From NCBI GenBank assembly GCA_964534135.1, contig CAZHQC010000002.1, forward strand, positions 1 through 50,062: a DNA stretch of 50,062 bases. Direction: 5' to 3'. The notes under the pieces are model-generated. The model worked only from the letters and a program-made list of their open reading frames with translations, did not search any database and was not told the DNA's origin. The stretch is from an uncultured Elusimicrobiaceae bacterium (GTDB lineage: Bacteria; Elusimicrobiota; Elusimicrobia; Elusimicrobiales; UBA9959). The translations under genes and the position numbers were made by a program. Positions 29,439 through 47,874 of the stretch are shown one piece after another. The first letter of the stretch is position 1; every line of letters begins with the position of its first letter.

Positions 29439-29918
29439 TTGAAACAGTCAAAAGAGAAAATTTCATTGAAATGCGATTTAAAAAAGTATTCTTTGGATGA
29501 TATGAGATATGCCGCTTATTCCGTTACCGACGAGGCGCATGTTTTGTTGAAGAAATTGAATTTGAAAACAATTGAGGTTTCTTTTAAGCGGAAAGGGAAA
29601 GTGTTTCTTGCAAAGACCGTAAAGCGGTTTGCTCAAGAGCTTAAAGATGAAAAGATTCGCGCGGGGATATTTAAAGAAAATTCGGAACTTAGAGAATTTT
29701 TGATTCTCAGCGCCTTAAACTATGAAGAGAAATCTGTGCCCAAAGAAGATTCGATGGGATTAACGCCCGAGCAAGAGAAAGAATTGGATAGTCTTATTAG
29801 TCAAGTTGAGGAGGAAATAAAGAAAGAGACCTCTTCTTCCAAAAAATCAGATCCATTAAAAATAAATCAGACCTGGGAAGAAAAAAATGAAGCTAAAGCT
29901 AAAAAACACAAAAAATAA
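29439..29918 (+). CDS. HxsD-like small protein, copy 1, with a charged C-terminal extension
   Basis: TTG start after a GAGGAGAG SD. It is homologous to 31472..31774: L..D...YS.......AAY.......A........IEV.FK......L...F..EL.D..IR....K.NS.....I...AL. It directly precedes and overlaps an HxsB-like gene. The HxsD assignment comes from context plus a weak match to the motif region I recall for that family. Confidence 0.45.
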   Translation: MKQSKEKISLKCDLKKYSLDDMRYAAYSVTDEAHVLLKKLNLKTIEVSFKRKGKVFLAKTVKRFAQELKDEKIRAGIFKENSELREFLILSALNYEEKSVPKEDSMGLTPEQEKELDSLISQVEEEIKKETSSSKKSDPLKINQTWEEKNEAKAKKHKK

Positions 29919-31344
29919 ATCGAAAGCCAAGGATCTCGTTTCTTGTGCTCGTTGGCGCAAAATTTCAGGGAAATATCTTTTGATTAATGATTTTGGTAAT
30001 TTTGAGTATCTTAAACCGACTGAATTCGATAAGTGGCTAAAATCCAAATTACCTGAAAAATCCAAGGTTTTTACAAGTTTGGCTGAAAAAGGTTTTATTA
30101 GAAATCGCATGGATTTTGATAATTTGTCATCAAAGTGGAGAAATGCGAATAGTTATCTTTTTGGCAGCGCGGGTTTGCATATTCTTGTCATGACATTAAG
30201 ATGTAATCACAGTTGTGTCTATTGTCAGTCAAGTGCGATTGATCCGTCCAAAAAAAAGACCGATATGTCATACAGGACAGCTAAGGCTAGTGTGGATTTT
30301 GCTTTTAAAAGTCCCAATCCTACAATCACAATAGAATTTCAAGGTGGAGAACCGCTTTTGAATTGGGATGTTCTAAAAAAAACAGTGACCTATGCCAAGG
30401 GTATGGAGAAAAAAACAAAAAAGAGTTTGATTCTCGCTTTGGTTTCCAATTTTTCTTTAATGACCGAAAAAAAGGCGAAATTTTTAATGGAGAATGAGGT
30501 TTCCATTTGTACTTCTTTGGACGGGCCTAAAAAAATTCATAATAAGAACAGAACATATCTTAAGGAAAGCTCCTATGATGTGACGGTTAAGTGGCTTAAA
30601 TATTTTAATGCCAAGCATGACAAACAAAATAAAAAATATAGAATATTCAAACCCAGCGCTCTTCTTACGGTTTCAAAAAATTCTCTTGCTTATGCAGAGA
30701 AGATAGTTAATGAATATGTCGCGCGGGGTTTGGAAGATATTTTTATAAGACCTTTGGCGCCCATAGGCTATGCCAAAAAATATTGGAATAGCATCGGTTA
30801 TTCAGCTGAGAATTTTATTTCTTTTTATAGAAAGTCCTTAAAACACATAATTAAGCTTAATGCCAAAAAAGTCATAAGAGAAAAAACCGCTATGATGATT
30901 TTGGATAAGGTTTTAAACGCGCATGATCCCGGCTATCTTGATATGAGATGTCCTTGCGGCGCTTCAATAGGGCAGATAGCTTATAATCATAATGGCGATT
31001 TATATACTTGCGATGAAGGAAGAATGATAGGTTGGACCGGTGATGATATATTTAAAACGGGTAATGTTTTTAAAGATTCATATTCGTCTATTATGAGCAG
31101 TCCGGTAACGAAAAGCTGTGTTTTGTCCTCAAATCTTGAACAACAACCTTTATGTTTCCGTTGCGCTTATAAGCCTTATTGTGGAGTTTGTCCGGTTTAT
31201 AATTATGAAACGCAAAATTCTCCCTGGGGCAATATGCCATCCAATGACAGGTGTAAACTATTTATGGGCATATTCGATACAATATTTGAATTACTTGATA
31301 AGCCCAAAGAGGCGGCTATTTTAAGTAAATGGGTGCAAAAATGA
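29887..31344 (+). CDS. hxsB: HxsB-like radical SAM/SPASM maturase, paralog 1
   Basis: CX3CX2C (RCNHSCVYCQ). IEFQGGEPLLNW SAM-binding block. SPASM-type Cys clusters CPCGASIGQIAYNHNGDLYTCDEGRM and CFRCAYKPYCGVCPVYNY. The ~100-aa N-terminal domain is shared with paralogs 2 and 3. Confidence 0.65.
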   Translation: MKLKLKNTKNKSKAKDLVSCARWRKISGKYLLINDFGNFEYLKPTEFDKWLKSKLPEKSKVFTSLAEKGFIRNRMDFDNLSSKWRNANSYLFGSAGLHILVMTLRCNHSCVYCQSSAIDPSKKKTDMSYRTAKASVDFAFKSPNPTITIEFQGGEPLLNWDVLKKTVTYAKGMEKKTKKSLILALVSNFSLMTEKKAKFLMENEVSICTSLDGPKKIHNKNRTYLKESSYDVTVKWLKYFNAKHDKQNKKYRIFKPSALLTVSKNSLAYAEKIVNEYVARGLEDIFIRPLAPIGYAKKYWNSIGYSAENFISFYRKSLKHIIKLNAKKVIREKTAMMILDKVLNAHDPGYLDMRCPCGASIGQIAYNHNGDLYTCDEGRMIGWTGDDIFKTGNVFKDSYSSIMSSPVTKSCVLSSNLEQQPLCFRCAYKPYCGVCPVYNYETQNSPWGNMPSNDRCKLFMGIFDTIFELLDKPKEAAILSKWVQK

Positions 31345-31471
31345 CTTTGTTCACCTGCTTATGTGTCAAAAGGTGTGTTTGATAGATAAAAGTTGGCAGG
31401 ACAATAATGAGAGAATGAAGTGTTGTTAAAAGTTTTAAAGAGCGGCTTATGATCGCTAAGGAGATTGTAAA

Positions 31472-31774
31472 GTGAAAAATACTGATAATGATGTAAGGAC
31501 GCTTGTTCTTGATGAAGAGATATATTCCAAAGAAGCTATAACCTTAGCAGCTTATATTTATTCGGAAAAGGCGGAGATAGGGCATAAGAAAAAAAGTGGC
31601 AAAGTTGAGATTAAATTTAAAGCAATTGAGTCGTCTAATGAAAATTTGGCGGATGATTTTGTCAATGAGATTTTAAATCAGCAGTGCAGAATAGATTTGA
31701 CTAAGAAAAACTCTAAGGTTTCTCAGATAATAACAACGAAAGCTTTATTATCAGCCGCGGGAGAGCGCATATAA
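31472..31774 (+). CDS. HxsD-like small protein, copy 2
   Basis: GTG start after an AAGGAG SD. 100 aa. It is homologous to the first ~95 aa of 29439..29918. Confidence 0.45.
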   Translation: MKNTDNDVRTLVLDEEIYSKEAITLAAYIYSEKAEIGHKKKSGKVEIKFKAIESSNENLADDFVNEILNQQCRIDLTKKNSKVSQIITTKALLSAAGERI

Positions 31775-31788: not shown

Positions 31789-32916
31789 ATGAAAAAAGGT
31801 TTGATATTAATAACGGTTATTTTATTCGTTTTAATACTGGCATTGAGATATGTAGAGGAAAAAAGCGGAAGATCTGATAGAGACGGCGCTATAATTCAGA
31901 CTGAAAAAGGCGTTGAGGGTGTTTCTTTACCTAAAGGAAAGGACTCGGAGAATCTTATGCCTGAGTTGGAACCGGAAAGTTATGATGGCGGTTTAGTGTC
32001 ATATAATGACCCTCTTACTTTATCTGAAGGTGAAGAAAAATTGAAAAAAGCCTGTAAAAAGGGTTCTGTTAAGGACATCTTCATGGCGCATGGTCAAATT
32101 TGGGGATATGGCATAGCAAGCTCGAAAAGTTTTAACGGTGAAGAGAGTAAAACGATTTATGACCGTTTAGCTCAATATACTGCATGTAGGGCAGCGGCTA
32201 AGAGAAATGTTGATTATTGTAATAGGCTGCCCTCTGGATTAAAAGGTGTTCGGAATATTCCCGCGCGCCTGAGTTCGCAGCACGAATGCATTGATATTGC
32301 CAATAATGTTATTTTTTCCGATTTTATGGCCGGAAATATTAAAGATACATCTTCTTGTTTATTGCTTTTATCGGGTGATATGTTTAAAAATGTCCCAATT
32401 CCGAATGATATGTTTTGTAAGGCTGCGGGAACAGGGCTTGAAAATATTTGCGAATCTTTTAAAAAACTGGGCGTTAAAGGTACCGACAAAGATTTGCCTC
32501 CGTGCTATAAATTTTTTCCGCGTAAATTATCCGATTGTGCTTCAAATTCTTGCAGGCTTAGATATAAGATTTATCAGGGAATAAAAGACAAGAAACCAGA
32601 AAATTGTCCTGATGGCTATAAGAGCGTATGCAGCGCGTATCTTTCGAGATCTACAAAGTCTTGTGAGAAATTGGCATTGAGTCTTTCCAAGACCTATTGT
32701 AATTTTCTTAAGCGTGTTAATAAAGCGAGTGGCAATGCGCCCGGCATGAGTGATGATGAAATAAAACAACATGCTGCACAATTAGAAATGGAAGCAGCAG
32801 AGAAAAGACAGCGTGCAGAAGAAGAACGTCTTTTTGAGAAAAAACGTAAAAAAGAGGATGAGAAGGTAATCAAAGAGATTAATTCGAGAGTAAAAAAACT
32901 TTTGGGGAAAAAATAG
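31789..32916 (+). CDS. membrane-anchored or exported Cys-rich protein with a charged coiled-coil tail
   Basis: N-terminal hydrophobic helix GLILITVILFVLILAL. About 20 Cys are spread through the central domain. The C-terminus is EMEAAEKRQRAEEERLFEKKRKKEDEKVIKE. I recognise no family. Confidence 0.5.
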   Translation: MKKGLILITVILFVLILALRYVEEKSGRSDRDGAIIQTEKGVEGVSLPKGKDSENLMPELEPESYDGGLVSYNDPLTLSEGEEKLKKACKKGSVKDIFMAHGQIWGYGIASSKSFNGEESKTIYDRLAQYTACRAAAKRNVDYCNRLPSGLKGVRNIPARLSSQHECIDIANNVIFSDFMAGNIKDTSSCLLLLSGDMFKNVPIPNDMFCKAAGTGLENICESFKKLGVKGTDKDLPPCYKFFPRKLSDCASNSCRLRYKIYQGIKDKKPENCPDGYKSVCSAYLSRSTKSCEKLALSLSKTYCNFLKRVNKASGNAPGMSDDEIKQHAAQLEMEAAEKRQRAEEERLFEKKRKKEDEKVIKEINSRVKKLLGKK

Positions 32917-32924: not shown

Positions 32925-33290
32925 ATGAAGAAAAAAAATAAAATAGGTAAAAACATAAAAATGTTTTTGAATAGTGAAGAAGGCAAAATGCTTGATTCTG
33001 ATATAGTTAAGACCGGACTTGCTTTGGGTATTCTTGGAGGAGCCATAATGGATGCGAGTGTGGCCCATGGCGTGATTCATTCAAATTACTTTAGGTCCAC
33101 TTATCATGTAAGCCATCAAAGCCACGGTTCTCACGGTTCTCACGGTTCTCATGGCTCCCATGCTTCTCACGGCTCGCATAGTTCGCATGGTTCGCATGGT
33201 TCGCATGGTTCGCATGGTTCTCACGGCTCTCATGGTTCTCACGGCTCTCACGGCTCTCATGGCTCTCATGCCAGAGGCGGTTGGTGTTGA
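32925..33290 (+). CDS. hxsA: His-Xaa-Ser repeat precursor protein (HxsA-type)
   Basis: 121 aa. It has a basic N-terminus, FLNSEEG, a hydrophobic segment GLALGILGGAIM, then 18 uninterrupted H-x-S triplets (HVS HQS HGSx4 HAS HGS HSS HGSx9), ending HARGGWC. An AGAGG RBS precedes it. Confidence 0.8.
   Translation: MKKKNKIGKNIKMFLNSEEGKMLDSDIVKTGLALGILGGAIMDASVAHGVIHSNYFRSTYHVSHQSHGSHGSHGSHGSHASHGSHSSHGSHGSHGSHGSHGSHGSHGSHGSHGSHARGGWC
33105..33266 (+). repeat. 18 tandem 9-bp units (CAY-GGY-TCN) encoding the HxS array
   Basis: Read directly: cat/cac ggt/ggc tct/tcg/tcc units. A run of three identical catggttcg units occurs in the middle. Synonymous variation elsewhere argues for selection on the peptide rather than simple slippage. 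Confidence 0.9.
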
Positions 33291-33335: not shown

Positions 33336-33400
33336 AAATTCCGCTTAAGCCCTTTTTCATCATATAGTTGGGAAATGGCTTAAGCGGAATTTGTTTTCTT
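33336..33400 (+). terminator. strong hairpin (terminator or attenuator) after hxsA
   Basis: Perfect 16-bp inverted repeat aaattccgcttaagcc / ggcttaagcggaattt (33336-51 / 33377-92) followed by gttttctttatt. Confidence 0.6.
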
Positions 33401-33475: not shown

Positions 33476-34540
33476 ATGCCATCCTTTGCTGATAACAATT
33501 TAAAATATATTCAAAAAAAATTTAAAAATATTGATTTGCCGGTTATAAAAGCCAGAATAAAAAACATACAATGGCCTGTTTGGAAAAAAGCCAAAGTATG
33601 CGAAGTAACGGTAAATTCAATATGCAATAACAGGTGTTTATTTTGCTATAACAGTGAAAAATATTTTGGTAGTGAACCTGATGCTGATTTTAAAGCAGTT
33701 TGTCGGGCCTTATATGAAGGAAGAAAGCAAGGGGCGTGGATTGCGGCTATTATCGGGGGAGAACCGTCTTTAAATAAAGATATAGGAAAGCTCGCTTCCG
33801 TCGCGAGAAAGATAGGGTATGATTGCGTTAAGATATGCACCAATGGCCTTAAACTTTCAGATAAGGCTTATACTCGACATTTGGTTGAAAGCGGTTTTAA
33901 TATGTTTGATATTTCAATACACGGGCATACTGCCAAAATACATGATACGCTTGTAAATTCAAAAGGGGCTTTTTCAAAAATAATGAAAGCTGCGGAAAAT
34001 GTAAAAGATTATTCCGCGGAACTCGGAACAAATCAAGTTATCAATAAACTTAATTATAAAAGTTTTCCTAAATTTTTTAAGTTGGCCTATGTGGATTTGG
34101 GGATAAATTATTACAATATTATCTATTCTCATTATCGCGGTATGATGTGGAAAAACAAGCAGGTGCTTAAAATTCCCATTACAAAGACCGCGCCATATAT
34201 AAAAGAAGGTTTTAAAGTAATAAAAGATTTAAAAATGCCTGTTTTTTCCAGAATGCTGGTTAATTTTCCGCCTTGCATATTTCCCGAATATCTTGATATT
34301 TTGGCTGATTGGGAATCTGAAGAGGAAGGAGCTGATTCTCTTTTGCTTCCCGGGGGTGAAATTGTAAATATGGCGGAAATGAAAAATAAACAGGCGGCAA
34401 AATCCGCATCTTGCGCGCAATGTTTTTTAAATGATAAATGTCATGGTATAGATAAAGAATACTTGGACATTTTCGGAGGAAAGGAATTTAAGCCTATAAA
34501 AAAGAAAGATATAAAAAAATATTTTAAAACGATATTTTAG
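33476..34540 (+). CDS. radical SAM protein, C-type paralog 1 (HxsC-like?)
   Basis: CNNRCLFCYN (CX3CX2C), IIGGEPSL, internal NFPPCIF, and C-terminal CAQCFLNDKCHGIDKEYLDIFG. It has a ~45-aa N-terminal extension. Confidence 0.7.
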   Translation: MPSFADNNLKYIQKKFKNIDLPVIKARIKNIQWPVWKKAKVCEVTVNSICNNRCLFCYNSEKYFGSEPDADFKAVCRALYEGRKQGAWIAAIIGGEPSLNKDIGKLASVARKIGYDCVKICTNGLKLSDKAYTRHLVESGFNMFDISIHGHTAKIHDTLVNSKGAFSKIMKAAENVKDYSAELGTNQVINKLNYKSFPKFFKLAYVDLGINYYNIIYSHYRGMMWKNKQVLKIPITKTAPYIKEGFKVIKDLKMPVFSRMLVNFPPCIFPEYLDILADWESEEEGADSLLLPGGEIVNMAEMKNKQAAKSASCAQCFLNDKCHGIDKEYLDIFGGKEFKPIKKKDIKKYFKTIF

Positions 34541-34553
34541 GTTTTTCTAGGTA

Positions 34554-35642
34554 GTGATGAATACATTTAATAAAGAAATAAATAAATTTAAAATAGCTTT
34601 AACTTCCGATTGTTGTTTGAGGTGTTCACATTGTTTTATTGATAAAGATTTGAAGGAAAAAACGAATCGTAAGATGGTGGATAGCGTATTGGATTTGTTT
34701 ATAAATTCCAAGGGGACAAAAAAGATTCTTGAAATTTATGGTGGAGAGCCTTTTTTGGAATTTGAATTATTAAAAGAAGTTGTGGCTTTGGCGCGAAAAA
34801 AAGCTTTAAAAAAAAGAAAAGAACTTTCCATATCGGTAGCTAGCAATGGAGTGCTTATTTTAAATAAACATCTTAACTACATGCTTGAAAATAATATAAG
34901 GCTTTCCATCAGTTTTTCCGGGACAAAAGAAACTCAAGATTTGGTTCGAAAATTCCCGGGTGGTGAAGGCAGTTACCTTATTATAAAAAAGAAACTTCCC
35001 AATATTTTAGCTAAACTCGGCCAAAAACTGCATATTATTTTTTGTGTTCATCCTTTAAGGAGTTCTTTTGTTTATAAGGATTTTAAGGCTCTTGTTGCTA
35101 TGGGCGTTAAAAACATAGGAATAGAGTGTGTACATGGATTTAAATGGACGGAGTCGGATTATAAGAATTTTTCAAAAGGAATGGAAAAGATAAGTTCTTA
35201 TGTAATTAAAAAAGTTAAATCAGGAGATTTTATTCTTCTAGAGTCTTTAATGGAAGCCTTTAGGGAAAAAACTTATGAAAATGATTTTTGTCCGTTTTTA
35301 AGAGATTTAGAGATGTTTCCCGATGGCACCCTATCATTATATCCATATCCTTTTGTTAAAGGTTTGGCGCAGAGGAAAAAAATATCCGTAGGCACCGCTT
35401 TAAAAGGAATTAAAAAAAAATATTCTTCTTGTTTGCCAAAATCAGGGTCTGTAAAGTGTAATAATTGTTTAGCCAAGTATTATCAGCTTTCGGGGCTTTA
35501 TGAAGGAAGTGTGGCATATAATATGAGAACGGATATAAGTGTAAAAGCTGTAAGAGATATCCTTGATATGTCCAAACAAGACGGAGTTTTGAGAGATTAT
35601 CTTAAAACCTTATTAAAACTTTTCAAAAAAGGATACACCTAA
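34554..35642 (+). CDS. radical SAM protein, X-type 1 (SPASM/twitch-like C-terminus)
   Basis: DCCLRCSHCFI, IYGGEPFLEF, and C-terminal Cys residues (FCPF...., SSCLPKSGSVKCNNCL). It is related to 42584..43645. Confidence 0.65.
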   Translation: MMNTFNKEINKFKIALTSDCCLRCSHCFIDKDLKEKTNRKMVDSVLDLFINSKGTKKILEIYGGEPFLEFELLKEVVALARKKALKKRKELSISVASNGVLILNKHLNYMLENNIRLSISFSGTKETQDLVRKFPGGEGSYLIIKKKLPNILAKLGQKLHIIFCVHPLRSSFVYKDFKALVAMGVKNIGIECVHGFKWTESDYKNFSKGMEKISSYVIKKVKSGDFILLESLMEAFREKTYENDFCPFLRDLEMFPDGTLSLYPYPFVKGLAQRKKISVGTALKGIKKKYSSCLPKSGSVKCNNCLAKYYQLSGLYEGSVAYNMRTDISVKAVRDILDMSKQDGVLRDYLKTLLKLFKKGYT

Positions 35643-35695
35643 TTCAAATAGTTTAGTGTTTGGGTAATACCTAAGTAAAGTTATAAATCGGAGCA

Positions 35696-41619: not shown

Positions 41620-42554
41620 ATAAAAAATCGTCCAAAAAAATTAAAATTGTTATTTTTACGGGTTATGCCTGCAATAATAATTGCCGGTTTTGTATAAATT
41701 CAAATAAGCGGGAACTTCTGGAAAAGACAACGGATGAATTAATTAAAGAAATTTATCTGGCTAAAAAAAAGAAAGCAGATATCATAGAAATAATAGGGGG
41801 AGAATCTACCATAAGGTCTGATTACACGCATTTGGTTTCATTCGCGAAAAAAATCGGAATTAAAGAGGTTTTAAGCGCCACAAACGGCAGGATATTTTCG
41901 GATTTTTCCGCCGCTAAAAAAATAGTGGATAGCGGTATTACGGGGCTTATATTTTCTTTGCACGGACATAATTCAAAAACCCATGATTATTTGACCAGAA
42001 GCCCGGGCAGTTTTAATGAATTGATAAAAGGAATAGAGAATTTAAAAAAGCTTGGTTTTAGAAGGATAAATGGCAATACTACTATTGTTAAGCAGAATAT
42101 GCGGTTTTTACCTGAAATAGCGGAAATATATGCCAGGTATCATGTGCGCAATGTTGAATATATTTTTGTCGATCCGACTTATGGTGGGGCTTATGATAAT
42201 TTTGAAATGTTGGTGCCAAAAATATCAAAAGCGAGTGTATATATGAAAAAAGCCATTGATATCGGTCTTGAGTATGGTTATTCACAATGGAAAGCCAGAT
42301 ATGTTCCACTTTGTTATTTCAAGGGTTATGAAAAACATATAAGTGAAATCAATGAGAGAATTCTTTTTTCTACTGAACACTGGGCTCCGGATTTTAAAAA
42401 TACGGACGCTTTAGCTTCAAGACAGCTGGTGTCAAGAAAAAAAACAATGCGTTGTAAGGGTTGTTCGTTTTATAATGCCTGTGAAGGTATATGGGTGGAA
42501 TATATTAATCATTATGGTGATAGTGAGCTTAAGCCGGTAAAGAAAATAGAGTAA
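41616..42554 (+). CDS. radical SAM protein, C-type paralog 4
   Basis: GTGA overlap with the upstream gene. CNNNCRFCIN, IIGGESTIR, YVPLCYFKGYE, CKGCSFYNACEGIWVEYINHYG. Confidence 0.7.
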   Translation: MNKKSSKKIKIVIFTGYACNNNCRFCINSNKRELLEKTTDELIKEIYLAKKKKADIIEIIGGESTIRSDYTHLVSFAKKIGIKEVLSATNGRIFSDFSAAKKIVDSGITGLIFSLHGHNSKTHDYLTRSPGSFNELIKGIENLKKLGFRRINGNTTIVKQNMRFLPEIAEIYARYHVRNVEYIFVDPTYGGAYDNFEMLVPKISKASVYMKKAIDIGLEYGYSQWKARYVPLCYFKGYEKHISEINERILFSTEHWAPDFKNTDALASRQLVSRKKTMRCKGCSFYNACEGIWVEYINHYGDSELKPVKKIE

Positions 42555-42583
42555 ATAATAAGAAGAAAGAATATAGTGAAGCC

Positions 42584-43645
42584 ATGGAGAGAGTTTTAAT
42601 GAATGCGCCGAATAATCTTGTTATATATATGAGCGGTTTATGTAATCTTAGATGCTCCTATTGCTATGTTAAAGACACCGTTTTTGAAAAGCCAATAGAG
42701 AAAAAAGTTTTACTAAGAGCTGTTTCAAAGTTTTTAAATTCTCCGGGTAAAAGCAAGAAAATAACCTTTCTTGGGGGAGAGCCTTTTCTGCATTTTAATT
42801 TGATAAAAGCTGTCATAATTTTTATAAGAAAAGAAACAAAAAACAATTTGCCTGTGCATATATTTACCAATGGTTTGTTAATTGATGAAAAAATATCTAA
42901 GTTTATAAAAGATTTCAATATTAATCTGATTGTCAGTTTAAATGAGCGGGATATGTCTGTCGGAATATTCAAAGCGAGAAGAGATATCAAAAAGATTTTT
43001 AAATATATTGAGCTTGGAAAGACAACTGTATCCTTGGTAATAAAGAAAGAAGCGGCAAATGATTTGTTTAACCATGTTTCAAGCTTGTATAAATTAGGGT
43101 TTAGGCATATTGCCTGGTCTCCGGATATAACAAAAATCTGGAATGAAAAGGAAATTTTAGCCTTGAAGCGTGAAATGCTTAGACTCCGAAGGCATTATCT
43201 CCAATTGATTAAAAAAGGGCTTGAGCTTTATGAAATTGCCAACGCGTATGAAATTATGGATAAAATTCTCAAGCGTCCCTTCATCGACGCATGTATGAGC
43301 GTGATTCTTTGTTCCGATGGAAATTTCATTCCTTGTGATAAGCTTATTGCAAGTGATAAAAATGGTGTTGAAAAGTATGCTTCATCTCAAGTGGCGGGCG
43401 GAAAGAAAAAAAATCTTTTTTTTAAAGAAGCTTTAAAATATGGCGCGGATGTAAAAAATTTAATGTGTCCCGTAGGGGCGTTCGCGTATAGTAAATATGT
43501 TTTAAAAAGCGGGGCTTCCGAGGTTAAAAGGGCGGTGAAACAGCATATAAAATTATCCGCTGTTATTGAAGAGAATTATTTTTTATTATTTAAGCAAGCC
43601 TTGAAATATTCGGCATTTAGAAAGGCGTATAATATTAATGATTAA
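42584..43645 (+). CDS. radical SAM protein, X-type 2
   Basis: CNLRCSYCYV, FLGGEPFLHF, and late Cys cluster DACMSVILCSDGNFIPCDKL ... LMCPVG. Confidence 0.65.
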   Translation: MERVLMNAPNNLVIYMSGLCNLRCSYCYVKDTVFEKPIEKKVLLRAVSKFLNSPGKSKKITFLGGEPFLHFNLIKAVIIFIRKETKNNLPVHIFTNGLLIDEKISKFIKDFNINLIVSLNERDMSVGIFKARRDIKKIFKYIELGKTTVSLVIKKEAANDLFNHVSSLYKLGFRHIAWSPDITKIWNEKEILALKREMLRLRRHYLQLIKKGLELYEIANAYEIMDKILKRPFIDACMSVILCSDGNFIPCDKLIASDKNGVEKYASSQVAGGKKKNLFFKEALKYGADVKNLMCPVGAFAYSKYVLKSGASEVKRAVKQHIKLSAVIEENYFLLFKQALKYSAFRKAYNIND

Positions 43646-44855
43646 AAAAGCTAAAATTTCCAAAAAAGCAATAAGTGATGATATGAAAAAAGAATCACTA
43701 AATAAATGCTATGAGATAATTCTCAATTATAATTGTAACGCCAAGTGTCTTTTTTGTTCGCAGGGCTCATTTGATAAGTCTTTAAACGCCGGTTTTGATA
43801 ATATAGCCAAGAATATATATTCAGCTTATAAAATGGGTTATCGCCGGCTTGGCTTTACGGGCGGTGAGCCTTTATTGCGCGGCGATATAATAAAAATTAT
43901 TTCTTTGGCGAAATCTATCGGTTTTGATTTTATAAGAATTCAGACAAACGGGATAAAACTTGCGAATAAAAAATTCGCCGGGCAATTGGTCGAAGCCGGT
44001 CTTACTGTTTGCAAATTTTCTTTTTTAAGTGATAAGGCCAAGGTTCATGATGAATTGGTGGGCGTAAAGGGAGCTTGGAAAAAAGCAATGCTTGGCTTGA
44101 AAAATTTAAAAAGCCAGAAAGTAAGAGTTGGGACCAATATACTTATCAATAAATATAATTTTAACCGCCTTGATGAGATAATATATTATTTCCTTGAAAA
44201 GGGAATAAGCAATTTTGTGATGATTTATCCCATGTATATAGGAAGCATGAAAGCTAATCATTTAAAAATCGGCGTTTCTCTGCCTAAGGCAAAAAAATAT
44301 TTTATAAGCGCCATTAAAGTTATGAAAAAGGCGGGCTTGCCCGATGAAATCCTTTTTTTAAATGTGCCTCCTTGTTTTTTGAAGGGCTATGAATCCTTAT
44401 CCATAGGACTTGAGAATTTTAATACTTTAGTTACCGATCCCAGCGGCATTAAAACCGATTTGGATGAAAACGCGGACAAGGCCAAAGTCCGCATTCCGTT
44501 GTGCCGGACTTGCGTTTTTAAGAAAAAATGTTCGGGCATAGACAAAAATTATATTGATATATGGGGCCTGCCAAAATTTATTTCTCAGGAAAAAAAGAAA
44601 AAAACATCTGCACTTGGCGAAAAAGTATTTTTCTCCGACAATGAAAGATGTTTTATTGAAATACTCAAAAGCAAAGTTCCCGCTTCAACGGCTGAGGTAT
44701 TGAAGTTGGCGAAAAATATAATTTTATGTCGTGATTGTTCGGACGGCAATGCCGTTATAGTTGCCGCTGAAAGTCTTATAAAGAAAAAAATTGTCGAGAA
44801 AATTTTTAAAAAAGGGCGCTATTATTGGACACTTAAAAGCGCTGGGAAAAAGTAA
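43638..44855 (+). CDS. radical SAM protein, C-type paralog 5, with a ~90-aa winged-helix-like C-terminal extension
   Basis: CNAKCLFCSQ, FTGGEPLLR, NVPPCFLKGYE, CRTCVFKKKCSGIDKNYIDIWG. The extension is ERCFIEILKSKVPASTAEVLKLAKNI....VIVAAESLIKKKIVEKIFKKGRYYWTL. Confidence 0.7.
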   Translation: MIKKAKISKKAISDDMKKESLNKCYEIILNYNCNAKCLFCSQGSFDKSLNAGFDNIAKNIYSAYKMGYRRLGFTGGEPLLRGDIIKIISLAKSIGFDFIRIQTNGIKLANKKFAGQLVEAGLTVCKFSFLSDKAKVHDELVGVKGAWKKAMLGLKNLKSQKVRVGTNILINKYNFNRLDEIIYYFLEKGISNFVMIYPMYIGSMKANHLKIGVSLPKAKKYFISAIKVMKKAGLPDEILFLNVPPCFLKGYESLSIGLENFNTLVTDPSGIKTDLDENADKAKVRIPLCRTCVFKKKCSGIDKNYIDIWGLPKFISQEKKKKTSALGEKVFFSDNERCFIEILKSKVPASTAEVLKLAKNIILCRDCSDGNAVIVAAESLIKKKIVEKIFKKGRYYWTLKSAGKK

Positions 44856-45701
44856 ATGGCTTTATTGCGTATTATTCATACTTGTAATCAAGATTGCGTG
44901 TTTTGTTCTTATCTTGGGAAAAACGCGAAGAATAAAAAATATGATTTTAAGGAATATTCTCTTGAAATAATTAAATCCAAAGACAAACTTATCCAGATAT
45001 CCGGCGGGGAGCCGTTTCTTTTGGGTGGAATAAATCTCTTAAAGCTGGTTCTTTTTGCTGTTAAAAATAATAAGAAAGTGGAGATACAAAGCAATGCTTC
45101 CCTTATTAAGGATATCTCTTTAGATATTTTAAAAAAATTGATTAAGGCGGTTAATTTATCGAAAGGTTACTTTAATATTAATCTTTCAGCGGCAGATGTT
45201 ATTACGGACGAAAGAGTAGCTGGCGCGAAAAATATATTCGCGGATAAAATAAAAGGCATAAAATTATTATATACGCTTGGCGCTGATATAAGATTGACTT
45301 ATATTATTTGCAGATCGAATTATAAACAAACTCCTGAATTTGTAAATTTTATACTCAAAGAATTTCCCGGCATTAAGTGGGTGCAATTTAGTTTTGTTAA
45401 GGCCATGGGAAAAGCTTTAACTAAGAAAATAGTTCCCAAATATCGGACTGTAAAAAAATATATTATTAAAGCGGCTTCGCTTTGTGAAAAAAATAAAATA
45501 ATGTGTGAAATAGATCATATTCCGTTATGTATGCTGGGCTCTTATTATCGTTTTAACGTTGATATAGGAAAAATAAATGAAAATAAAAACGGTTTACATA
45601 GGCAAGAGAAAACGCATATAAAAAGATGCTTAAAATGTAAATATGTTAATATTTGCTCGGGACCGAGAAAAGATTATCTTAAAATATACGGAGATTTATA
45701 A
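44856..45701 (+). CDS. radical SAM protein, C-type paralog 6
   Basis: CNQDCVFCSY, ISGGEPFLL, HIPLCMLGSYY, CLKCKYVNICSGPRKDYLKIYG. Confidence 0.7.
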   Translation: MALLRIIHTCNQDCVFCSYLGKNAKNKKYDFKEYSLEIIKSKDKLIQISGGEPFLLGGINLLKLVLFAVKNNKKVEIQSNASLIKDISLDILKKLIKAVNLSKGYFNINLSAADVITDERVAGAKNIFADKIKGIKLLYTLGADIRLTYIICRSNYKQTPEFVNFILKEFPGIKWVQFSFVKAMGKALTKKIVPKYRTVKKYIIKAASLCEKNKIMCEIDHIPLCMLGSYYRFNVDIGKINENKNGLHRQEKTHIKRCLKCKYVNICSGPRKDYLKIYGDL

Positions 45702-46954
45702 TGAGGGGCGCAAAAAATATTTTGCCTTTAAAAAAGGAATTTCCCGCATTAAAGCGCAGGATTTCAAAAAAAGCGATAGTTTATCTTGATAGCGCTTGCA
45801 CCGCTTTAAAAATGAAATCAGCGGCTCGCGAGCAGAGCGATTTCTTGCTTGAATCCGGAGCTTGCGCCGGCAAAAGATCCGTTCATTTGCTTAGCCGCGA
45901 AGTGGAAAATAAAATTTGCGCGGCGCGTAAAGCCATTGCTTCATTTATCGGAGCGGATAGCTTGGACGAAATAGTTTTTACAAGCGGAACAACTGAAAGC
46001 GCCAATATCGCGGCCGCAAGTTTTCCTTTTAAAAAAGGAGCCGAAGTTATCCTATCTCCTTTAGAGCATAATAGTGTTTTTCTCCCGTTTTATCGTTTAG
46101 CTGGAGAAGGCAAAATAAAGCTTAAAATTATTCCGCTTAAGAATTTTAAACCGGATTTTAACGTTTATAAAAAAATGCTTAATTCTAAAACGGCTCTTGT
46201 TTGCATAACTCATGCTTCCAATATTTTTGGCGGTATTGTGGATATCAAAAAATTTATAAATGCCGCTCATAAGAAAGGGGCCAAAGTTTTTATTGATGAC
46301 GCTCAGTATATCCCTTCGCATAAAGAAAATGTCAGCGCTTTGAATGCGGATATGCTGGCTTTTTCAGGTCATAAAATGGGCGCTCCTTTTGGCACCGGGA
46401 TTTTATATATTAAGAGAAGTCTTTTTAAATTTTTAAAATCTTCAAAGTTGGGTGGGGGAACTATTAAGGAAATAGTTCTTGAAGATGGCCTATATAGAGT
46501 TTGTTTTCTTGAAAATAATTTGGCTTATGAAGCCGGTATTCAGAACTATTCCGGTATTGCGGCGCTTAAAAAATCTTTTGAATTATTACATGAAATCGGC
46601 TATGAAAATATAAGGAAGCACCTTCAAGAGATTGTTGAATATGCTTATGCGAAACTTTCGTCTTTTAAAGAAATAAAAATTATAGGCAATCAGAGAGATT
46701 TGTCAAAAGGAAGTCTTATATCTTTTGTATGTGAAAATCCTAAATTTTCCATTATTGATTTTAATCTTTTCTTGCAGGAATATTCGGCTAAATATTTTGT
46801 GGCTGTAAGATGTGGCCGACATTGCGCGGATTTAGCTATTTTAAATTCGGATATAAAATCTACGGTTAGATTGTCATTTTTTATTTATAGCTCAAAGCGC
46901 GATATTGATGTTTTTTACCGGGCCTTAATTCTTTATCTAAAATCTTTTTCATGA
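45701..46954 (+). CDS. class V aminotransferase / cysteine desulfurase (SufS/NifS-like)
   Basis: TAATG overlap with the upstream gene. HASNIFGG, DDAQY, PLP-lysine context FSGHKMGAPFGTGILYI, and catalytic-Cys context RCGRHCA. Confidence 0.75.
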   Translation: MRGAKNILPLKKEFPALKRRISKKAIVYLDSACTALKMKSAAREQSDFLLESGACAGKRSVHLLSREVENKICAARKAIASFIGADSLDEIVFTSGTTESANIAAASFPFKKGAEVILSPLEHNSVFLPFYRLAGEGKIKLKIIPLKNFKPDFNVYKKMLNSKTALVCITHASNIFGGIVDIKKFINAAHKKGAKVFIDDAQYIPSHKENVSALNADMLAFSGHKMGAPFGTGILYIKRSLFKFLKSSKLGGGTIKEIVLEDGLYRVCFLENNLAYEAGIQNYSGIAALKKSFELLHEIGYENIRKHLQEIVEYAYAKLSSFKEIKIIGNQRDLSKGSLISFVCENPKFSIIDFNLFLQEYSAKYFVAVRCGRHCADLAILNSDIKSTVRLSFFIYSSKRDIDVFYRALILYLKSFS

Positions 46955-47874
46955 AAAAAAAATCCATTAATGACGCGGAACCCAATCTTTTTCTGACTGC
47001 CGAATGCAATCAGAATTGTATTTTTTGTTCGGCCAAGGGGGAAGATAGGAGTATGACAAAAAAGGAGCTTTCAGCCTGCCTCGCTTTGGGTTATAAATCG
47101 CTTGCTTTTGAAGGCGGCGAGCCTCTTATGAGTAAAGATTTAATATATTGGACTGAGCGCGCAAAAAAAAGTGGGGCGGATGAAATTATATTGCTTACAA
47201 ACGGGCTTTTGCTTACAGAGAATAAATTGAAGCTTTTAATACAAAAGGGAATAACCAAATTTGAATTTAATTTACCGTCTCATATAGTGAAACTTCATGA
47301 TACCTTGACCGGGTCAAAAAAGCAATTTCCAAAGAGAATAAGGGCGATTAAAAGGACGCTTAAATATATCAAAGACGGAGTAATAATAACTTTTGTTTTA
47401 AACGCCTTAAACTATAAAACCTTGCCTGCCTATATTAATTTTATAGCGAAAGAATTTCCTGGAACATTTTTTATAGCTTTAAATTTCATTAAAATAAAAG
47501 GGCTTGTTAAAAAAAGAAAATATCTTGTGCCAAAATTAAGCGAAACGAAGTTTTATATTCTTAAAGCTTTGGAAAAGGCCAAAAAAATGCATATGCCGAT
47601 TATATTGGATGGTTTTCCTTTATGCGTTTTAGACGGTTATGAGGAATATTCCAGAGATATCGACAGAATTATTAAAAGCGATAAGTCTTATCTGGGAGAG
47701 AAAAAGCATATAAAAAAATGTTTAAAATGCTCTTTAAAAGATATCTGCGCGGGGCCAAGAAAAGATTATTTGAACTTATTTGGAGATAAAGAGATTTCAG
47801 CTTCATCAAAAAAAATCGCGCCCATAATAAATAAAGTAAAAAAAGGCCAACTGCGATTGAATATTAAAGCTTAG
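46951..47874 (+). CDS. radical SAM protein, C-type paralog 7
   Basis: ATGA overlap with the upstream gene. CNQNCIFCSA, FEGGEPLMS, GFPLCVLDGYE, CLKCSLKDICAGPRKDYLNLFG. Confidence 0.7.
   Translation: MKKKSINDAEPNLFLTAECNQNCIFCSAKGEDRSMTKKELSACLALGYKSLAFEGGEPLMSKDLIYWTERAKKSGADEIILLTNGLLLTENKLKLLIQKGITKFEFNLPSHIVKLHDTLTGSKKQFPKRIRAIKRTLKYIKDGVIITFVLNALNYKTLPAYINFIAKEFPGTFFIALNFIKIKGLVKKRKYLVPKLSETKFYILKALEKAKKMHMPIILDGFPLCVLDGYEEYSRDIDRIIKSDKSYLGEKKHIKKCLKCSLKDICAGPRKDYLNLFGDKEISASSKKIAPIINKVKKGQLRLNIKA

What the first reader, a model, noticed from the sequence alone, without database searches (positions are those of the whole stretch)
29439..47874. Hyper-expanded His-Xaa-Ser (Hxs-type) RiPP-like operon: one HGS-repeat precursor, 12 co-directional radical SAM genes, an A24 peptidase and a cysteine desulfurase
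Canonical Hxs loci, as I recall them from the TIGRFAMs/NCBIfam definitions (HxsA repeat protein, HxsB and HxsC radical SAM maturases, small HxsD), are four-gene units with no established chemistry.

Here an HxsA-type precursor (18 HxS triplets) sits in an 18-kb unidirectional block containing:
- 2 HxsD-like genes;
- 3 HxsB-like SPASM enzymes;
- 7 paralogs of a ~300-aa radical SAM family;
- 2 further radical SAM enzymes of a third type;
- a Cys-rich exported protein;
- a prepilin-peptidase-like membrane protein;
- a SufS-like desulfurase.

From 33476 to 47874 no gap exceeds about 90 nt. Many junctions are TAATG, ATGA or GTGA overlaps (39478, 41616, 43638, 45701, 46951), which implies a single translationally coupled operon. 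The genes occur in recurring pairs (C1-X1, B2-C2, B3-C3, C4-X2).

Twelve radical SAM enzymes for one repetitive 54-residue core suggests iterative or combinatorial chemistry. One possibility is His-centred three-residue cyclophane-type crosslinks, by analogy with radical SAM/SPASM enzymes that act on aromatic-X-X motifs. Others are epimerisation, methylation or Ser modification. The product could be a heavily modified His-rich metal-binding peptide or filament. I know of no description of such an expanded architecture.
Basis: partly seen in the sequence, partly recalled or inferred. Interest (0 to 1): 0.95.

Follow-up and report, generated by a model that had tools for sequence, protein, structure and literature searches.

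The report
Expanded His-Xaa-Ser peptide maturation locus
An uncultured Elusimicrobiota bacterium carries a real, conserved 19-21-gene locus in which 12-13 radical SAM enzymes, a prepilin-type membrane protease and a cysteine desulfurase surround an exported peptide with 18 His-Xaa-Ser repeats; it is an unusually large, undescribed variant of the Hxs system, whose four-gene form was shown in 2026 to block phage DNA entry.

Summary
Curated models assign the precursor to HxsA4, the three ~475-aa enzymes to HxsB and one small protein to HxsD. All seven ~300-aa enzymes are HxsC-like but score below the curated cut-offs.

The membrane protein is a divergent A24 aspartyl peptidase. This rests on two invariant Asp motifs and on Pfam hits in homologues only.

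The locus is not unique. The same synteny occurs in many Elusimicrobiota, at a fixed chromosomal site near bamA and phoH. There is a 4-7-enzyme basal form with no nearby HxsA4, and an 8-12-enzyme expanded form. The window is at the upper end.

Simpler relatives occur in Omnitrophota, CPR bacteria and DPANN archaea. The HxsA4 family has at least 1,120 members, and PGAP already names some.

The claim of "no established chemistry" is outdated (Li et al., Nat Commun 2026). "Twelve enzymes for one core" is doubtful, because the basal enzyme set occurs without a nearby HxsA4.

The system also extends beyond the given coordinates: a conserved secreted protein upstream (28545-29375), and probably a HemN-like radical SAM gene downstream.

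Verdict: new variant of a known kind. Chemistry and function are unknown. Interest 0.6.

The parts
28545..29375 (+). U287: secreted protein. It has a signal peptide, an invariant SE-x-LTLTTYYPSPYGGY N-terminus, a hypervariable middle and a conserved Cys-containing C-terminus (GTMLCC). It is a conserved left-hand neighbour of HxsD-HxsB and lies outside the finding's coordinates.
   Evidence: It sits next to D1-B1 in Elusimicrobiota and Omnitrophota loci. Alignment A4 shows the conserved and variable parts. It is 51% identical to the close relative, against 80-95% for most other locus genes. The longest ORF starts at 28512; homologues support 28545.
29439..29918 (+). D1: HxsD-like protein with a charged C-terminal tail
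   Evidence: TIGR03976 gives 37.5 bits, below the cut-off of 50. Positional orthologues carry PF27806 HxsD.
29887..31344 (+). B1: HxsB radical SAM/SPASM maturase
   Evidence: TIGR03978 gives 478.7 bits against a cut-off of 370. CxxxCxxC at residue 106, with a full set of C-terminal Cys.
31472..31774 (+). D2: HxsD
   Evidence: TIGR03976 gives 54.9 bits against a cut-off of 50.
31789..32916 (+). CysR: exported protein with 14 Cys and a Lys/Glu-rich tail. It forms a two-gene module with hxsA4.
   Evidence: It has no family hit. A CysR-like gene lies directly upstream of hxsA4 in L017, L019, L067, L101 and L005, and also in L018, which has no radical SAM gene close to the pair.
32925..33290 (+). 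HxsA4 precursor. It has a Lys-rich leader with FLNSEEG, an invariant small residue (Gly31) before a short hydrophobic segment, 18 HxS triplets and a C-terminal ARGGWC.
   Evidence: NF038313 gives 67.3 bits against a cut-off of 55. The residue 11 positions after the SEEG Gly is G, A or S in 113 of 113 sequences.
33336..33392 (+). Long hairpin followed by a U-rich tract, directly after hxsA4. It is a candidate attenuator or 3' stabiliser.
   Evidence: The 120-nt segment 33291-33410 that contains the hairpin folds at -38.8 kcal/mol with z = -4.8. Hairpins of different sequence follow hxsA4 in L101, L017, L019 and L067.
33476..34540 (+). C1: HxsC-like radical SAM enzyme
   Evidence: Best hits are HxsC4 at 112 bits and HxsC at 90 bits, both below cut-off. 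It has CxxxCxxC and a C-terminal CxxCx5C.
34554..35642 (+). X1: PapB-like radical SAM/SPASM-type enzyme without an N-terminal extension
   Evidence: NF047865 gives 132 bits against a cut-off of 340.
35696..37126 (+). B2: HxsB paralogue that lacks several SPASM cysteines
   Evidence: TIGR03978 gives 411.3 bits.
37142..38041 (+). C2: HxsC-like radical SAM enzyme
   Evidence: HxsC4 gives 137 bits and HxsC 107 bits, both below cut-off. It is 65-90% identical to positional orthologues.
38060..39478 (+). B3: HxsB paralogue
   Evidence: TIGR03978 gives 499.3 bits.
39478..40362 (+). C3: the most HxsC-like radical SAM enzyme, overlapping B3 by 1 nt
   Evidence: TIGR03977 gives 153.5 bits against a cut-off of 267.9. 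It is the best match to canonical HxsC.
40450..41619 (+). Mem: divergent A24-type (prepilin-peptidase-like) polytopic membrane protein with a C-terminal soluble domain
   Evidence: D23, N31 and W-x-A-G-D96-A-K are invariant across phyla. Ten of 20 homologues hit PF01478, and the archaeal homologues hit PF06819. The window protein itself has no hit.
41616..42554 (+). C4: HxsC-like radical SAM enzyme, overlapping Mem by 4 nt
   Evidence: HxsC4 gives 141.6 bits, below cut-off. It is 58-65% identical to orthologues in more distant Elusimicrobiota loci.
42584..43645 (+). X2: second PapB-like radical SAM enzyme
   Evidence: NF047865 gives 106.5 bits. An X2 orthologue was found in expanded loci but not in the basal Elusimicrobiota loci.
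43638..44855 (+). C5: HxsC-like radical SAM enzyme with a ~108-aa C-terminal extension
   Evidence: A weak S10_plectin (winged-helix) hit, E = 0.021.
44856..45701 (+). C6: HxsC-like radical SAM enzyme, always paired with the desulfurase
45701..46954 (+). SufS-type PLP cysteine desulfurase
   Evidence: TIGR01979 gives 303 bits against a cut-off of 475. The SGHK lysine and the RCGRHCA cysteine are present.
46951..47874 (+). C7: HxsC-like radical SAM enzyme
47864..49264 (-). HemN/HemW-like radical SAM gene, convergent with C7 and overlapping it by 11 nt. It is a probable 13th member.
   Evidence: TIGR00538 gives 184 bits, below cut-off. It is 94% identical in the relative. HemN-like genes lie inside the co-directional block in L017, L021, L068, L072, L076, L077 and L079.

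Best explanation
This is a chromosomal, vertically inherited "type 4" His-Xaa-Ser system of an Elusimicrobiota bacterium. It is a maturation and export pathway for the small protein HxsA4.

Shown:
- The family assignments (HxsA4, three HxsB, HxsD).
- Intact radical SAM motifs in all 12 enzymes.
- Conserved synteny across genomes.
- A conserved leader architecture in the precursor family.

Inferred pathway:
1. HxsA4 is made with a Lys-rich leader carrying the conserved FLxSEEG motif. The leader is recognised in the cytoplasm by the ~95-105-aa N-terminal extensions of the HxsB enzymes and/or by the HxsD adaptors. In E. coli, HxsD binds HxsC.
2. The three HxsB SPASM enzymes, the HxsC-like enzymes and the two PapB-like enzymes install radical modifications on the 18 HxS triplets and possibly on the conserved ARGGWC tail. 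The most likely chemistry is crosslinking within triplets (His C2 to residue-3 C-beta, as in triceptides), or the uncharacterised +8 Da Hxs modification. The paralogues are old and individually conserved, so they do different jobs rather than the same job many times.
3. The A24-type membrane peptidase removes the leader at the invariant small residue just before the hydrophobic segment, as in prepilin processing. The peptide then reaches the periplasm, where CysR, always encoded next to it, is its partner.
4. The SufS-type desulfurase supplies sulfur for the roughly 25-35 Fe-S clusters of the enzyme set, or for a thio-modification.

The product is an envelope-resident array of modified histidines. 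[quoted passage not shown] The fixed chromosomal position beside bamA, ompH and lpxD argues for a constitutive envelope role.
For: - HMM assignments.
- All 12 enzymes keep CxxxCxxC. The C-types share a C-terminal CxxCx5C.
- C paralogues are 20-33% identical to each other, but 35-92% identical to their positional orthologues in other genomes.
- The leader motif F[LI]xSEEG is present in 81 of the 120 top family members. The residue 11 positions after its Gly is G, A or S in 113 of 113. An AxA-like site follows the hydrophobic segment.
- The A24-like peptidase sits inside HxsA4 loci of Elusimicrobiota, Omnitrophota, Woesearchaeota and Nanoarchaeota, and directly after hxsA4 in L094. Its two Asp motifs are invariant.
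- E. coli HxsA needs non-canonical N-terminal cleavage by an unidentified protease, as well as rSAM activity.
- A hairpin follows hxsA4 in five genomes.
- There is His-x-x crosslink precedent.
- The site next to bamA and phoH recurs in the window, L016, L019 and the P0225 contig.
Against: - No modification, cleavage or export has been observed; everything after gene content is inference.
- None of the seven C-type enzymes reaches the HxsC or HxsC4 cut-off.
- At least 12 distinct basal loci contain B1, D1, D2, C3, the peptidase, C4 and C5, often with C6 and SufS, but no HxsA4 within 10 kb.
- HxsA4 loci in CPR bacteria (L004, L008) and in one Nanoarchaeota genome (L013) lack the peptidase.
- The hydrophobic segment is short (11-16 aa) and is followed by an AxA-type site. 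Ordinary Sec and signal peptidase I processing would therefore suffice, leaving the A24 enzyme without an obvious need.
- The window peptidase itself has no Pfam hit, and neither Foldseek nor a PDB profile search recovered A24 structures.
- The +8 Da shift seen in E. coli is not the -2 Da expected for a simple cyclophane.
Confidence: 0.5

Rival explanations
1. The block is a composite of two systems. An ancestral basal module (U287, D1, B1, D2, C3, the A24 peptidase, C4, C5, C6, SufS) matures a different substrate: U287 with its invariant YYPSPYGGY motif, CysR, or an unlinked precursor. Only the add-on genes (CysR-HxsA4, B2, B3, X1, X2, C1) act on the HxS repeats.
For: - Twelve metagenomic loci, plus L016, have the basal set with U287 but no HxsA4-type leader or His-rich ORF within 10 kb.
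- HxsA4 was found in every B2/B3-containing locus whose upstream region is covered: the window, L017, L019, L057, L067, L076, L079 and L101.
- U287 is adjacent to HxsD-HxsB in two phyla.
Against: - In Omnitrophota a single B1-like HxsB, C3- and C4-like enzymes and the peptidase sit directly around HxsA4. The basal enzyme types therefore do co-occur with HxsA4.
- Several basal loci have a second HxsB gene, in two of them followed by a CysR-like gene, about 3-4 kb downstream at the locus edge. A CysR-HxsA4 pair can also lie far from any radical SAM gene (L018). Remote precursors are therefore plausible.
- P0225 has HxsA4 without B2 or B3.
Confidence: 0.3
2. It is functionally an antiphage defence system like canonical HXS. 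Matured HxsA4 sits in the periplasm and blocks incoming phage DNA. U287 is a fast-evolving surface component involved in the same conflict.
For: - It is homologous to the only characterised Hxs system, in which exported, rSAM-matured HxS repeats are essential and bind DNA.
- U287 has a swapped middle region between close relatives (51% identity against 80-95% for most other genes).
- U287 shares its N-terminus with tail-fibre-like proteins carrying PF13884.
- A barnase-barstar pair flanks the locus in L014, L016 and L019.
Against: - The locus has a fixed chromosomal position and conserved gene order across peptidase identities of 31-95%. Canonical hxsB is mostly on conjugative plasmids: 276 of the 349 matching plasmid records.
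- HxsA4 has no peptidoglycan-binding domain and no basic residues in its repeats (HGS rather than HRS).
- PADLOC gives only generic viperin-, SspA- and DndA-like hits.
Confidence: 0.25
3. The product is mainly a metal-handling peptide: a periplasmic Ni, Zn, Cu or Fe buffer, or a metallophore. The radical SAM modifications pre-organise the 19 histidines.
For: - The core composition is 19 His, 19 Ser and 16 Gly out of 61 residues.
- His-crosslinked copper-binding RiPPs exist (title of PMC10206099).
- The family has a conserved C-terminal aromatic or Cys residue.
Against: - There is no metal transporter, regulator or chaperone in or beside the locus.
- The argument rests on composition alone.
Confidence: 0.15
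4. The radical SAM set makes a peptide-derived or small-molecule cofactor (as for PQQ or mycofactocin), or belongs to the radical SAM suites reported next to nitrogenase paralogues in Elusimicrobia.
For: - Large radical SAM suites, up to 13 genes, are known in groundwater Elusimicrobia (bioRxiv 10.1101/765248).
- Relatives carry U32-family and B12-radical SAM genes in the cluster.
Against: - There is no nifH, nifD or nifK paralogue and no cofactor-dependent dehydrogenase in the window or in related loci.
- A precursor with a signal-like segment and 7-30 repeats is unlike known cofactor precursors.
Confidence: 0.05

Closest known systems
Canonical HXS antiphage system (HxsD-HxsB-HxsC-HxsA; Li et al., Nat Commun 2026, PMC13128918; TIGR03976-03979)
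   Same: - HxsB orthologues: 35-36% identical to an Aeromonas plasmid HxsB, and above the TIGR03978 cut-off.
- An HxsD protein is present.
- An HxsC-like partner lies directly after HxsB.
- The substrate is exported, has tandem HxS triplets and needs N-terminal processing.
   Different: - 12-13 radical SAM genes instead of 2.
- The C-type enzymes are only 20-25% identical to HxsC, lack its ~100-aa N-terminal domain and miss the cut-off.
- The precursor has 18 HGS-type repeats, a distinct FLxSEEG leader and no peptidoglycan-binding domain.
- It adds an A24 peptidase, a SufS-type desulfurase, CysR and U287.
- It is chromosomal and syntenic across a phylum, rather than plasmid-borne in Pseudomonadota.
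NCBIfam HxsA4 (NF038313) and HxsC4 (NF038332) "rare" Hxs variant models
   Same: The precursor passes the HxsA4 cut-off. PGAP already names Omnitrophota homologues HxsA4. HxsC4 is the best hit for C1, C2 and C4.
   Different: No C-type enzyme here or in the Omnitrophota loci reaches the HxsC4 cut-off of 500 bits; the best score is 207.7. I found no publication describing the type-4 system, its peptidase or its expansion.
Triceptide (three-residue cyclophane) radical SAM/SPASM synthases HaaB, HtkB and YhhB
   Same: These are SPASM enzymes that act iteratively on repeated aromatic-x-x motifs. They include His C2 to residue-3 C-beta crosslinks on HAA, HTK and HNR (PMC11499958). B1-B3 give weak YhhB hits of 43-60 bits.
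   Different: The scores are far below the YhhB cut-off of 445. No -2 Da product has been shown for any Hxs system, and the E. coli modification is +8 Da.
Flp/Tad and type IV prepilins with their A24 peptidases (TadV, CpaA, PilD, FlaK)
   Same: - A dedicated A24-type peptidase is encoded with its presumed substrate.
- The substrate has a charged leader ending in a small residue (Gly) just before a hydrophobic segment.
- FLxSEEG resembles the Flp FLKDESG motif; this resemblance is recalled from memory, not tested.
   Different: - There is no assembly ATPase, platform protein or secretin.
- The hydrophobic segment is short and is followed by an AxA site.
- The peptidase is much longer (389 aa) with a C-terminal domain, and is barely detectable by PF01478.
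Radical SAM suites next to nitrogenase paralogues in groundwater Elusimicrobia (Méheust et al. 2020)
   Same: The same phylum, and a comparable number of clustered radical SAM genes.
   Different: It is a different locus: nifHDK paralogues are present there and absent here, and no Hxs components are reported there.

Membership tests
His-Xaa-Ser (Hxs) system | HxsB equivalog (TIGR03978, cut-off 370 bits) | tested here: met
   B1 scores 478.7, B2 411.3 and B3 499.3 bits.
His-Xaa-Ser (Hxs) system | HxsC equivalog (TIGR03977, cut-off 267.9) or HxsC4 (NF038332, cut-off 500) | tested here: not met
   The best HxsC score is 153.5 (C3) and the best HxsC4 score is 141.6 (C4). These are nonetheless the top hits for all seven C-types.
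His-Xaa-Ser (Hxs) system | HxsD (TIGR03976, cut-off 50) | tested here: met
   D2 scores 54.9. D1 scores only 37.5, but its orthologues carry PF27806 HxsD.
His-Xaa-Ser (Hxs) system | Repeat protein with tandem His-Xaa-Ser triplets (an HxsA-type model) | tested here: met
   NF038313 HxsA4 gives 67.3 bits against a cut-off of 55, and there are 18 contiguous triplets. In relatives the model also covers the leader.
His-Xaa-Ser (Hxs) system | [quoted passage not shown] | tested here: not met
   There are 19-21 genes in the order D-B-D-CysR-A-..., and HxsA4 has no peptidoglycan-binding domain.
His-Xaa-Ser (Hxs) system | rSAM-dependent maturation of HxsA and antiphage activity | not testable with these tools
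   This needs expression, mass spectrometry and phage assays.
Peptidase family A24 (prepilin or type IV leader peptidase) | Two catalytic Asp in a polytopic membrane protein, the second in a GxGD-type motif | tested here: met
   D23 (D-x4-K-I-x-N) and W-P/S-A-G-D96-A-K are invariant in 20 sequences from four phyla and in 34 Elusimicrobiota sequences. The motif is xAGD rather than strict GxGD.
Peptidase family A24 (prepilin or type IV leader peptidase) | Match to Pfam PF01478 at its gathering score (26.5 bits) | tested here: inconclusive
   The window protein has no hit even at E = 10. Among homologues, 10 of 20 hit at E < 1, the best at 27.5 bits. The archaeal homologues pass PF06819 Arc_PepC.
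Peptidase family A24 (prepilin or type IV leader peptidase) | Fold similarity to solved A24 structures | tested here: inconclusive
   The AF2 model has pLDDT 81, but Foldseek against the PDB gave no match with E < 1. The PDB sequence-profile search also found nothing.
SufS/CsdA group II cysteine desulfurase | Curated SufS model cut-off; PLP lysine and catalytic cysteine | tested here: inconclusive
   TIGR01979 gives 303.3 bits, below the cut-off of 475.1. K225 in SGHK and C375 in RCGRHCA are both present.
PapB-type ranthipeptide maturases (X1, X2) | NF047865 cut-off of 340 bits | tested here: not met
   X1 scores 132.3 and X2 scores 106.5 bits. This is the top hit only.
Triceptide synthases (YhhB, GrrM, FxsB models) | Curated model cut-offs | tested here: not met
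   YhhB scores are 43-60 bits against a cut-off of 445. The resemblance is in substrate logic only.
RiPP pathway in general | A gene-encoded precursor with leader and core, next to its modifying enzymes | tested here: met
   There is a conserved leader and a repeat core, and the precursor is adjacent to SPASM enzymes in more than 15 loci. The modification itself is not testable here.

The most novel reading that the evidence does not exclude
HxsA4-type loci define a widespread, undescribed envelope system of uncultivated lineages (Elusimicrobiota, Omnitrophota, CPR bacteria, DPANN archaea).

In this reading, a prepilin-like (class III-type) leader directs a His-Xaa-Ser repeat peptide first to a battery of up to 13 non-redundant radical SAM enzymes. 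A dedicated A24 peptidase then processes it. This would be a "pilin-style" RiPP.

The combinatorially modified polyhistidine tail, together with CysR and the hypervariable secreted protein U287, would form a constitutive periplasmic or surface structure, for example a gate against phage DNA entry.
Probability: 0.25. Interest if true: 0.85.

Novelty: new variant of a known kind. Interest (0 to 1): 0.6.

Why it matters
The chemistry of the Hxs system is still unsolved. The E. coli work found an unexplained +8 Da change and an unidentified protease.

This variant offers three things the canonical system does not:
- A precursor with 18 near-identical target triplets, which gives strong mass-spectrometry signals.
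- A candidate for the missing protease.
- A graded natural series of loci with 4 to 12 enzymes, each enzyme a distinct orthologous group. This series could be used to assign individual reactions.

It also shows that Hxs-like maturation is not confined to mobile defence islands of Proteobacteria. It is a core chromosomal trait in several candidate phyla, with a precursor family of more than 1,000 members. That bears on what these systems are for.

Tried and rejected
- **Collagen-like reading of the GSH repeats.** Pfam Collagen scores 27.5 against a gathering score of 27.2, and there are Scl hits. I rejected this because relatives use HAS, HSS and HTS repeats without Gly. His and Ser are the conserved positions.
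- **Fold evidence for the peptidase.** Foldseek of the AF2 model (pLDDT 81) against the PDB gave nothing. A profile search and an archaeal homologue searched against PDB sequences also gave nothing.
- **U287 structure.** The AF2 model has pLDDT 53, so it is unusable and I ran no fold search.
- **PADLOC.** It returned only generic viperin-, SspA- and DndA-like hits.
- **Link to the nitrogenase-paralogue radical SAM suites of Elusimicrobia.** This is a different locus.
- **Glycosylation idea.** The upstream NTP-transferase, GT2 and 835-aa TPR membrane protein might form a periplasmic glycosylation module. The membrane domain has no Pfam hit, so this is untested.
- **Search for any His-rich or leader-bearing ORF in basal loci.** None was found.
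- **Consensus terminator scan.** It missed the post-precursor hairpin because of its loop-size limit.
- **Not used.** The exhaustive representative-protein search, the Rfam search and the viral collections were not needed for the question.

Full report

Yes.

The ORF at 32925-33290 encodes 121 aa. Residues 61-114 are 18 uninterrupted H-x-S triplets (14 of them HGS), followed by ARGGWC. The DNA carries a 9-nt unit repeated 16 times.

All twelve co-directional radical SAM ORFs keep CxxxCxxC.

The largest gap between 33476 and 47874 is 87 nt.

This cannot be chance. Orthologues of every gene, in the same order, occur in independent assemblies.

**2. Family assignments**

NCBIfam results:

| Gene(s) | Best model | Score (bits) | Cut-off | Passes? 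|
|---|---|---|---|---|
| B1, B2, B3 | HxsB (TIGR03978) | 478.7 / 411.3 / 499.3 | 370 | yes |
| D2 | HxsD (TIGR03976) | 54.9 | 50 | yes |
| D1 | HxsD (TIGR03976) | 37.5 | 50 | no |
| Precursor | HxsA4 (NF038313) | 67.3 | 55 | yes |
| C1-C7 | HxsC (TIGR03977), best is C3 | 153.5 | 267.9 | no |
| C1-C7 | HxsC4 (NF038332), best is C4 | 141.6 | 500 | no |
| X1, X2 | PapB family (NF047865) | 132 / 106 | 340 | no |
| Desulfurase | SufS (TIGR01979) | 303 | 475 | no |

- D1's positional orthologues carry Pfam PF27806 HxsD.
- In close relatives the HxsA4 model aligns over the leader as well as the repeats. PGAP already names Omnitrophota homologues "HxsA4".
- HxsC or HxsC4 is the top hit for all seven ~300-aa enzymes, so they are HxsC-like but not members by the curated test.
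- The desulfurase has both catalytic residues.

Against a textbook canonical locus on an Aeromonas plasmid:
- HxsB is 35-36% identical to B1-B3.
- HxsC is only 20-25% identical to C1-C7 and carries an extra ~100-aa N-terminal domain.
- HxsD is 22% identical to D2.
- HxsA shares nothing with HxsA4 except the triplets.

**3. The membrane protein (40450-41619)**

It has no Pfam or NCBIfam hit, even at E = 10. The first homologue search found 173 homologues, essentially all from Elusimicrobia. Further relatives lie in HxsA4 loci of Omnitrophota, Woesearchaeota and Nanoarchaeota.

Across these phyla the invariant residues are D23 and N31 (D-x4-K-I-x-N) and W-x-A-G-D96-A-K. These are the positions of the two catalytic aspartates of A24 peptidases.

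Ten of 20 homologues hit PF01478, the best at 27.5 bits against a gathering score of 26.5, and the hits map to residues 11-136. The two archaeal homologues pass PF06819, the archaeal A24 C-terminal domain.

An AF2 model (pLDDT 81) found nothing by Foldseek, and PDB sequence searches were empty.

I accept "divergent A24-type peptidase" on motif and profile evidence only.

**4. Organism and context**

The nearest relatives are MAGs labelled Elusimicrobiota: B3 is 81-85% identical to them, and the peptidase is up to 95% identical to its closest homologues.

Upstream of the locus the window encodes LpxD, BamA, inositol-phosphate synthase, a carbamoyltransferase, PhoH/PIN, an NTP-transferase, a GT2 glycosyltransferase and an 835-aa TPR membrane protein.

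BamA and PhoH/PIN recur just upstream of the locus in L016, L019 and the P0225 contig; L019 also shows OmpH and LpxD. The NTP-transferase, GT2 and TPR trio recurs in L047 and L101. The locus therefore sits at a fixed, housekeeping-type chromosomal site. By contrast, canonical hxsB matched 349 plasmid records, 276 of them conjugative.

**5. How common is the expanded form?**

A profile of the peptidase recovered 306 relatives in metagenomes. Gene-order strings for the loci with long flanks, together with L014-L019, show two grades.

- **Basal:** U287, D1, B1, D2, [CysR, C2], C3, peptidase, C4, C5, [C6, SufS]. This form has 4-7 radical SAM genes and appears in at least 12 distinct loci. No HxS ORF, no HxsA4-type leader (HMM search) and no His-rich ORF lies within 10 kb.
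- **Expanded:** adds CysR-HxsA4, B2, B3 and X2, and variably C1, X1 and a HemN-like gene. This form has 8-12 radical SAM genes: L003, L017, L019, L021, L057, L067/L078, L068, L069, L072, L073, L076, L077, L079, L100/L101 and the window.

A close relative, a 388-kb JGI contig, has the identical 12+1 arrangement.

HxsA4 loci found through HxsB in CPR bacteria, Omnitrophota and archaea carry roughly 5-8 radical SAM genes.

"Hyper-expanded" is therefore true relative to the canonical two enzymes, and the window is at the observed maximum. It is not unique.

The C paralogues are 20-33% identical to one another, but 35-92% identical to their positional orthologues. They are old, individually conserved lineages, not a recent amplification.

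**6. The precursor family**

The common architecture is:
- A Lys-rich N-terminus.
- A leader of the form LPxIKKxIxxF[LI]xSEEG[KR][IV][ST]K. The core motif F[LI]xSEEG is present in 81 of the top 120.
- Exactly 11 residues after the SEEG Gly, a small residue: G in 100, A in 10 and S in 3 of 113.
- A short hydrophobic segment.
- Usually an AxA-like site.
- A linker, often H-S/T-N/S-x-F.
- From 7 to 30 HxS triplets.
- An aromatic or Cys terminus: GQW 21, GWC 12, GSW 9, NSW 6 and SSY 6 of 120.

A CysR-like gene always precedes hxsA4, even in L018, where the pair has no radical SAM gene nearby.

A long hairpin followed by a U-rich tract comes directly after hxsA4; the 120-nt segment containing it folds at -38.8 kcal/mol with z = -4.8. 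Hairpins of unrelated sequence occupy the same place in four other Elusimicrobiota genomes. This fits the usual RiPP arrangement, in which the precursor transcript outnumbers the enzyme transcripts. It also qualifies the "single coupled operon" reading.

**7. What is known**

Li et al. (Nat Commun 2026, PMC13128918) showed that the four-gene HXS system of E. coli blocks phage DNA entry:
- HxsA is exported and is cleaved N-terminally in a way that needs HxsB, HxsC and HxsD.
- It carries a +8 Da modification on SHRSS and binds DNA.
- HxsC binds HxsD.
- 99.7% of systems are in Pseudomonadota, and more than 99.8% have four genes.

Radical SAM/SPASM triceptide synthases make His C2 to residue-3 C-beta crosslinks on HAA, HTK and HNR motifs (PMC11499958).

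I found no paper on HxsA4-type or expanded loci. The radical SAM suites reported in Elusimicrobia lie beside nitrogenase paralogues and are a different locus.

**8. Most likely mechanism (inferred)**

1. The leader of HxsA4 is recognised by the N-terminal extensions of the HxsB enzymes and/or by HxsD.
2. The HxsB, HxsC-like and PapB-like enzymes modify the triplets, and perhaps the ARGGWC tail, in the cytoplasm.
3. The A24 peptidase removes the leader at Gly31, at the cytoplasmic membrane face.
4. The peptide reaches the periplasm, where CysR is its partner.
5. The desulfurase feeds Fe-S assembly or a thio-modification.

The peptidase would be the type-4 counterpart of the unidentified protease of the E. 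coli system.

Main weaknesses:
- The basal loci lack a nearby HxsA4.
- Some HxsA4 loci lack the peptidase (L004, L008, L013).
- The AxA site would allow ordinary signal peptidase processing.

The chief rival is a composite system in which the basal enzymes act on U287 or CysR.

Function remains open. The options are a phage-entry barrier by analogy, a constitutive envelope component (favoured by the fixed chromosomal site), or metal handling (composition only).

**9. Verdict**

This is a real, coherent, conserved locus. It is a new, much enlarged variant of a known kind: the Hxs system, in its HxsA4 type. It carries an added A24 peptidase, a desulfurase and two conserved exported partners, and it is not described in the searchable literature.

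Interest is 0.6. It is notable to radical SAM and RiPP specialists and useful for solving Hxs chemistry. However, it is recurrent, partly anticipated by NCBIfam naming, and functionally untested.

Noticed in passing
window 28545-29375 (longest ORF starts at 28512): The secreted protein U287 has an invariant N-terminal SE-x-LTLTTYYPSPYGGY motif and a conserved C-terminal GTMLCC. Its central region is completely different in a close relative: 51% identity, against 80-95% for most other locus genes. The N-terminal module is shared with tail-fibre-like proteins carrying PF13884. It always lies just upstream of HxsD-HxsB in Elusimicrobiota and Omnitrophota.
   Followed up: partly
window 33336-33392: A 16-bp perfect-stem hairpin with a U-rich tail lies directly after hxsA4. 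Hairpins of different sequence occupy the same position in L101, L017, L019 and L067, but not in the Omnitrophota locus L005.
   Followed up: partly
window 47864-49264 (minus strand): A HemN/HemW-like radical SAM gene is convergent with C7 and overlaps it by 11 nt. HemN-like genes are co-directional members of the cluster in several related loci, once as a 794-aa fusion in L017.
   Followed up: partly
window 24351-28404: An NTP-transferase, a GT2 glycosyltransferase and an 835-aa polytopic membrane protein with C-terminal TPRs lie directly upstream and are syntenic in L047 and L101; the TPR protein alone also recurs in L014, L036, L043 and L057. They could form a periplasmic glycosylation module for the Ser-rich products. 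The membrane domain has no Pfam hit.
   Followed up: partly
window 35696-37126 (B2): This HxsB paralogue lacks several of the SPASM-domain cysteines that B1 and B3 have. It probably holds one fewer auxiliary cluster.
   Followed up: no
window 43638-44855 (C5): C5 is the only C-type enzyme with a ~108-aa C-terminal extension. A weak winged-helix-like hit (S10_plectin, E = 0.021) suggests a possible peptide- or nucleic-acid-binding domain.
   Followed up: no
L014 2957-3915; L016 5079-6053; L019 5016-5953: A barnase-type ribonuclease and barstar pair lies immediately upstream of U287 in several related loci. It is absent from the window.
   Followed up: no
L014 13318-15845; L016 3058-4014: Peptidase_U32-family genes (the family of O2-independent hydroxylases, as I recall) are inserted in or beside the cluster. 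B12-binding radical SAM genes are also present in L014, L005 and the P0225 contig. Other members of this locus family therefore add further anaerobic chemistry.
   Followed up: no
L011 8098-8664 (minus strand); L013 11253-11846: Archaeal ORFs carry the same FLxSE(E/Q)G leader but have Cys/His-rich, non-HxS cores. The leader may therefore be a general module used with other cores.
   Followed up: no
L018 9208-10330: A CysR-like gene and an hxsA4 gene occur next to isocitrate dehydrogenase, with no radical SAM gene close to the pair (the nearest, cut by the locus edge, is about 10 kb away). Precursor modules can therefore be unlinked from the enzymes.
   Followed up: partly
L047 19389-21143; L048 18145-21128; L039 20133-21161; L027 20574-21143: In basal-type loci a second HxsB gene, followed in L047 and L048 by a CysR-like gene, starts about 3-4 kb downstream of the desulfurase, beyond M20 peptidase and ornithine carbamoyltransferase genes. 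The loci end before a possible hxsA4.
   Followed up: no
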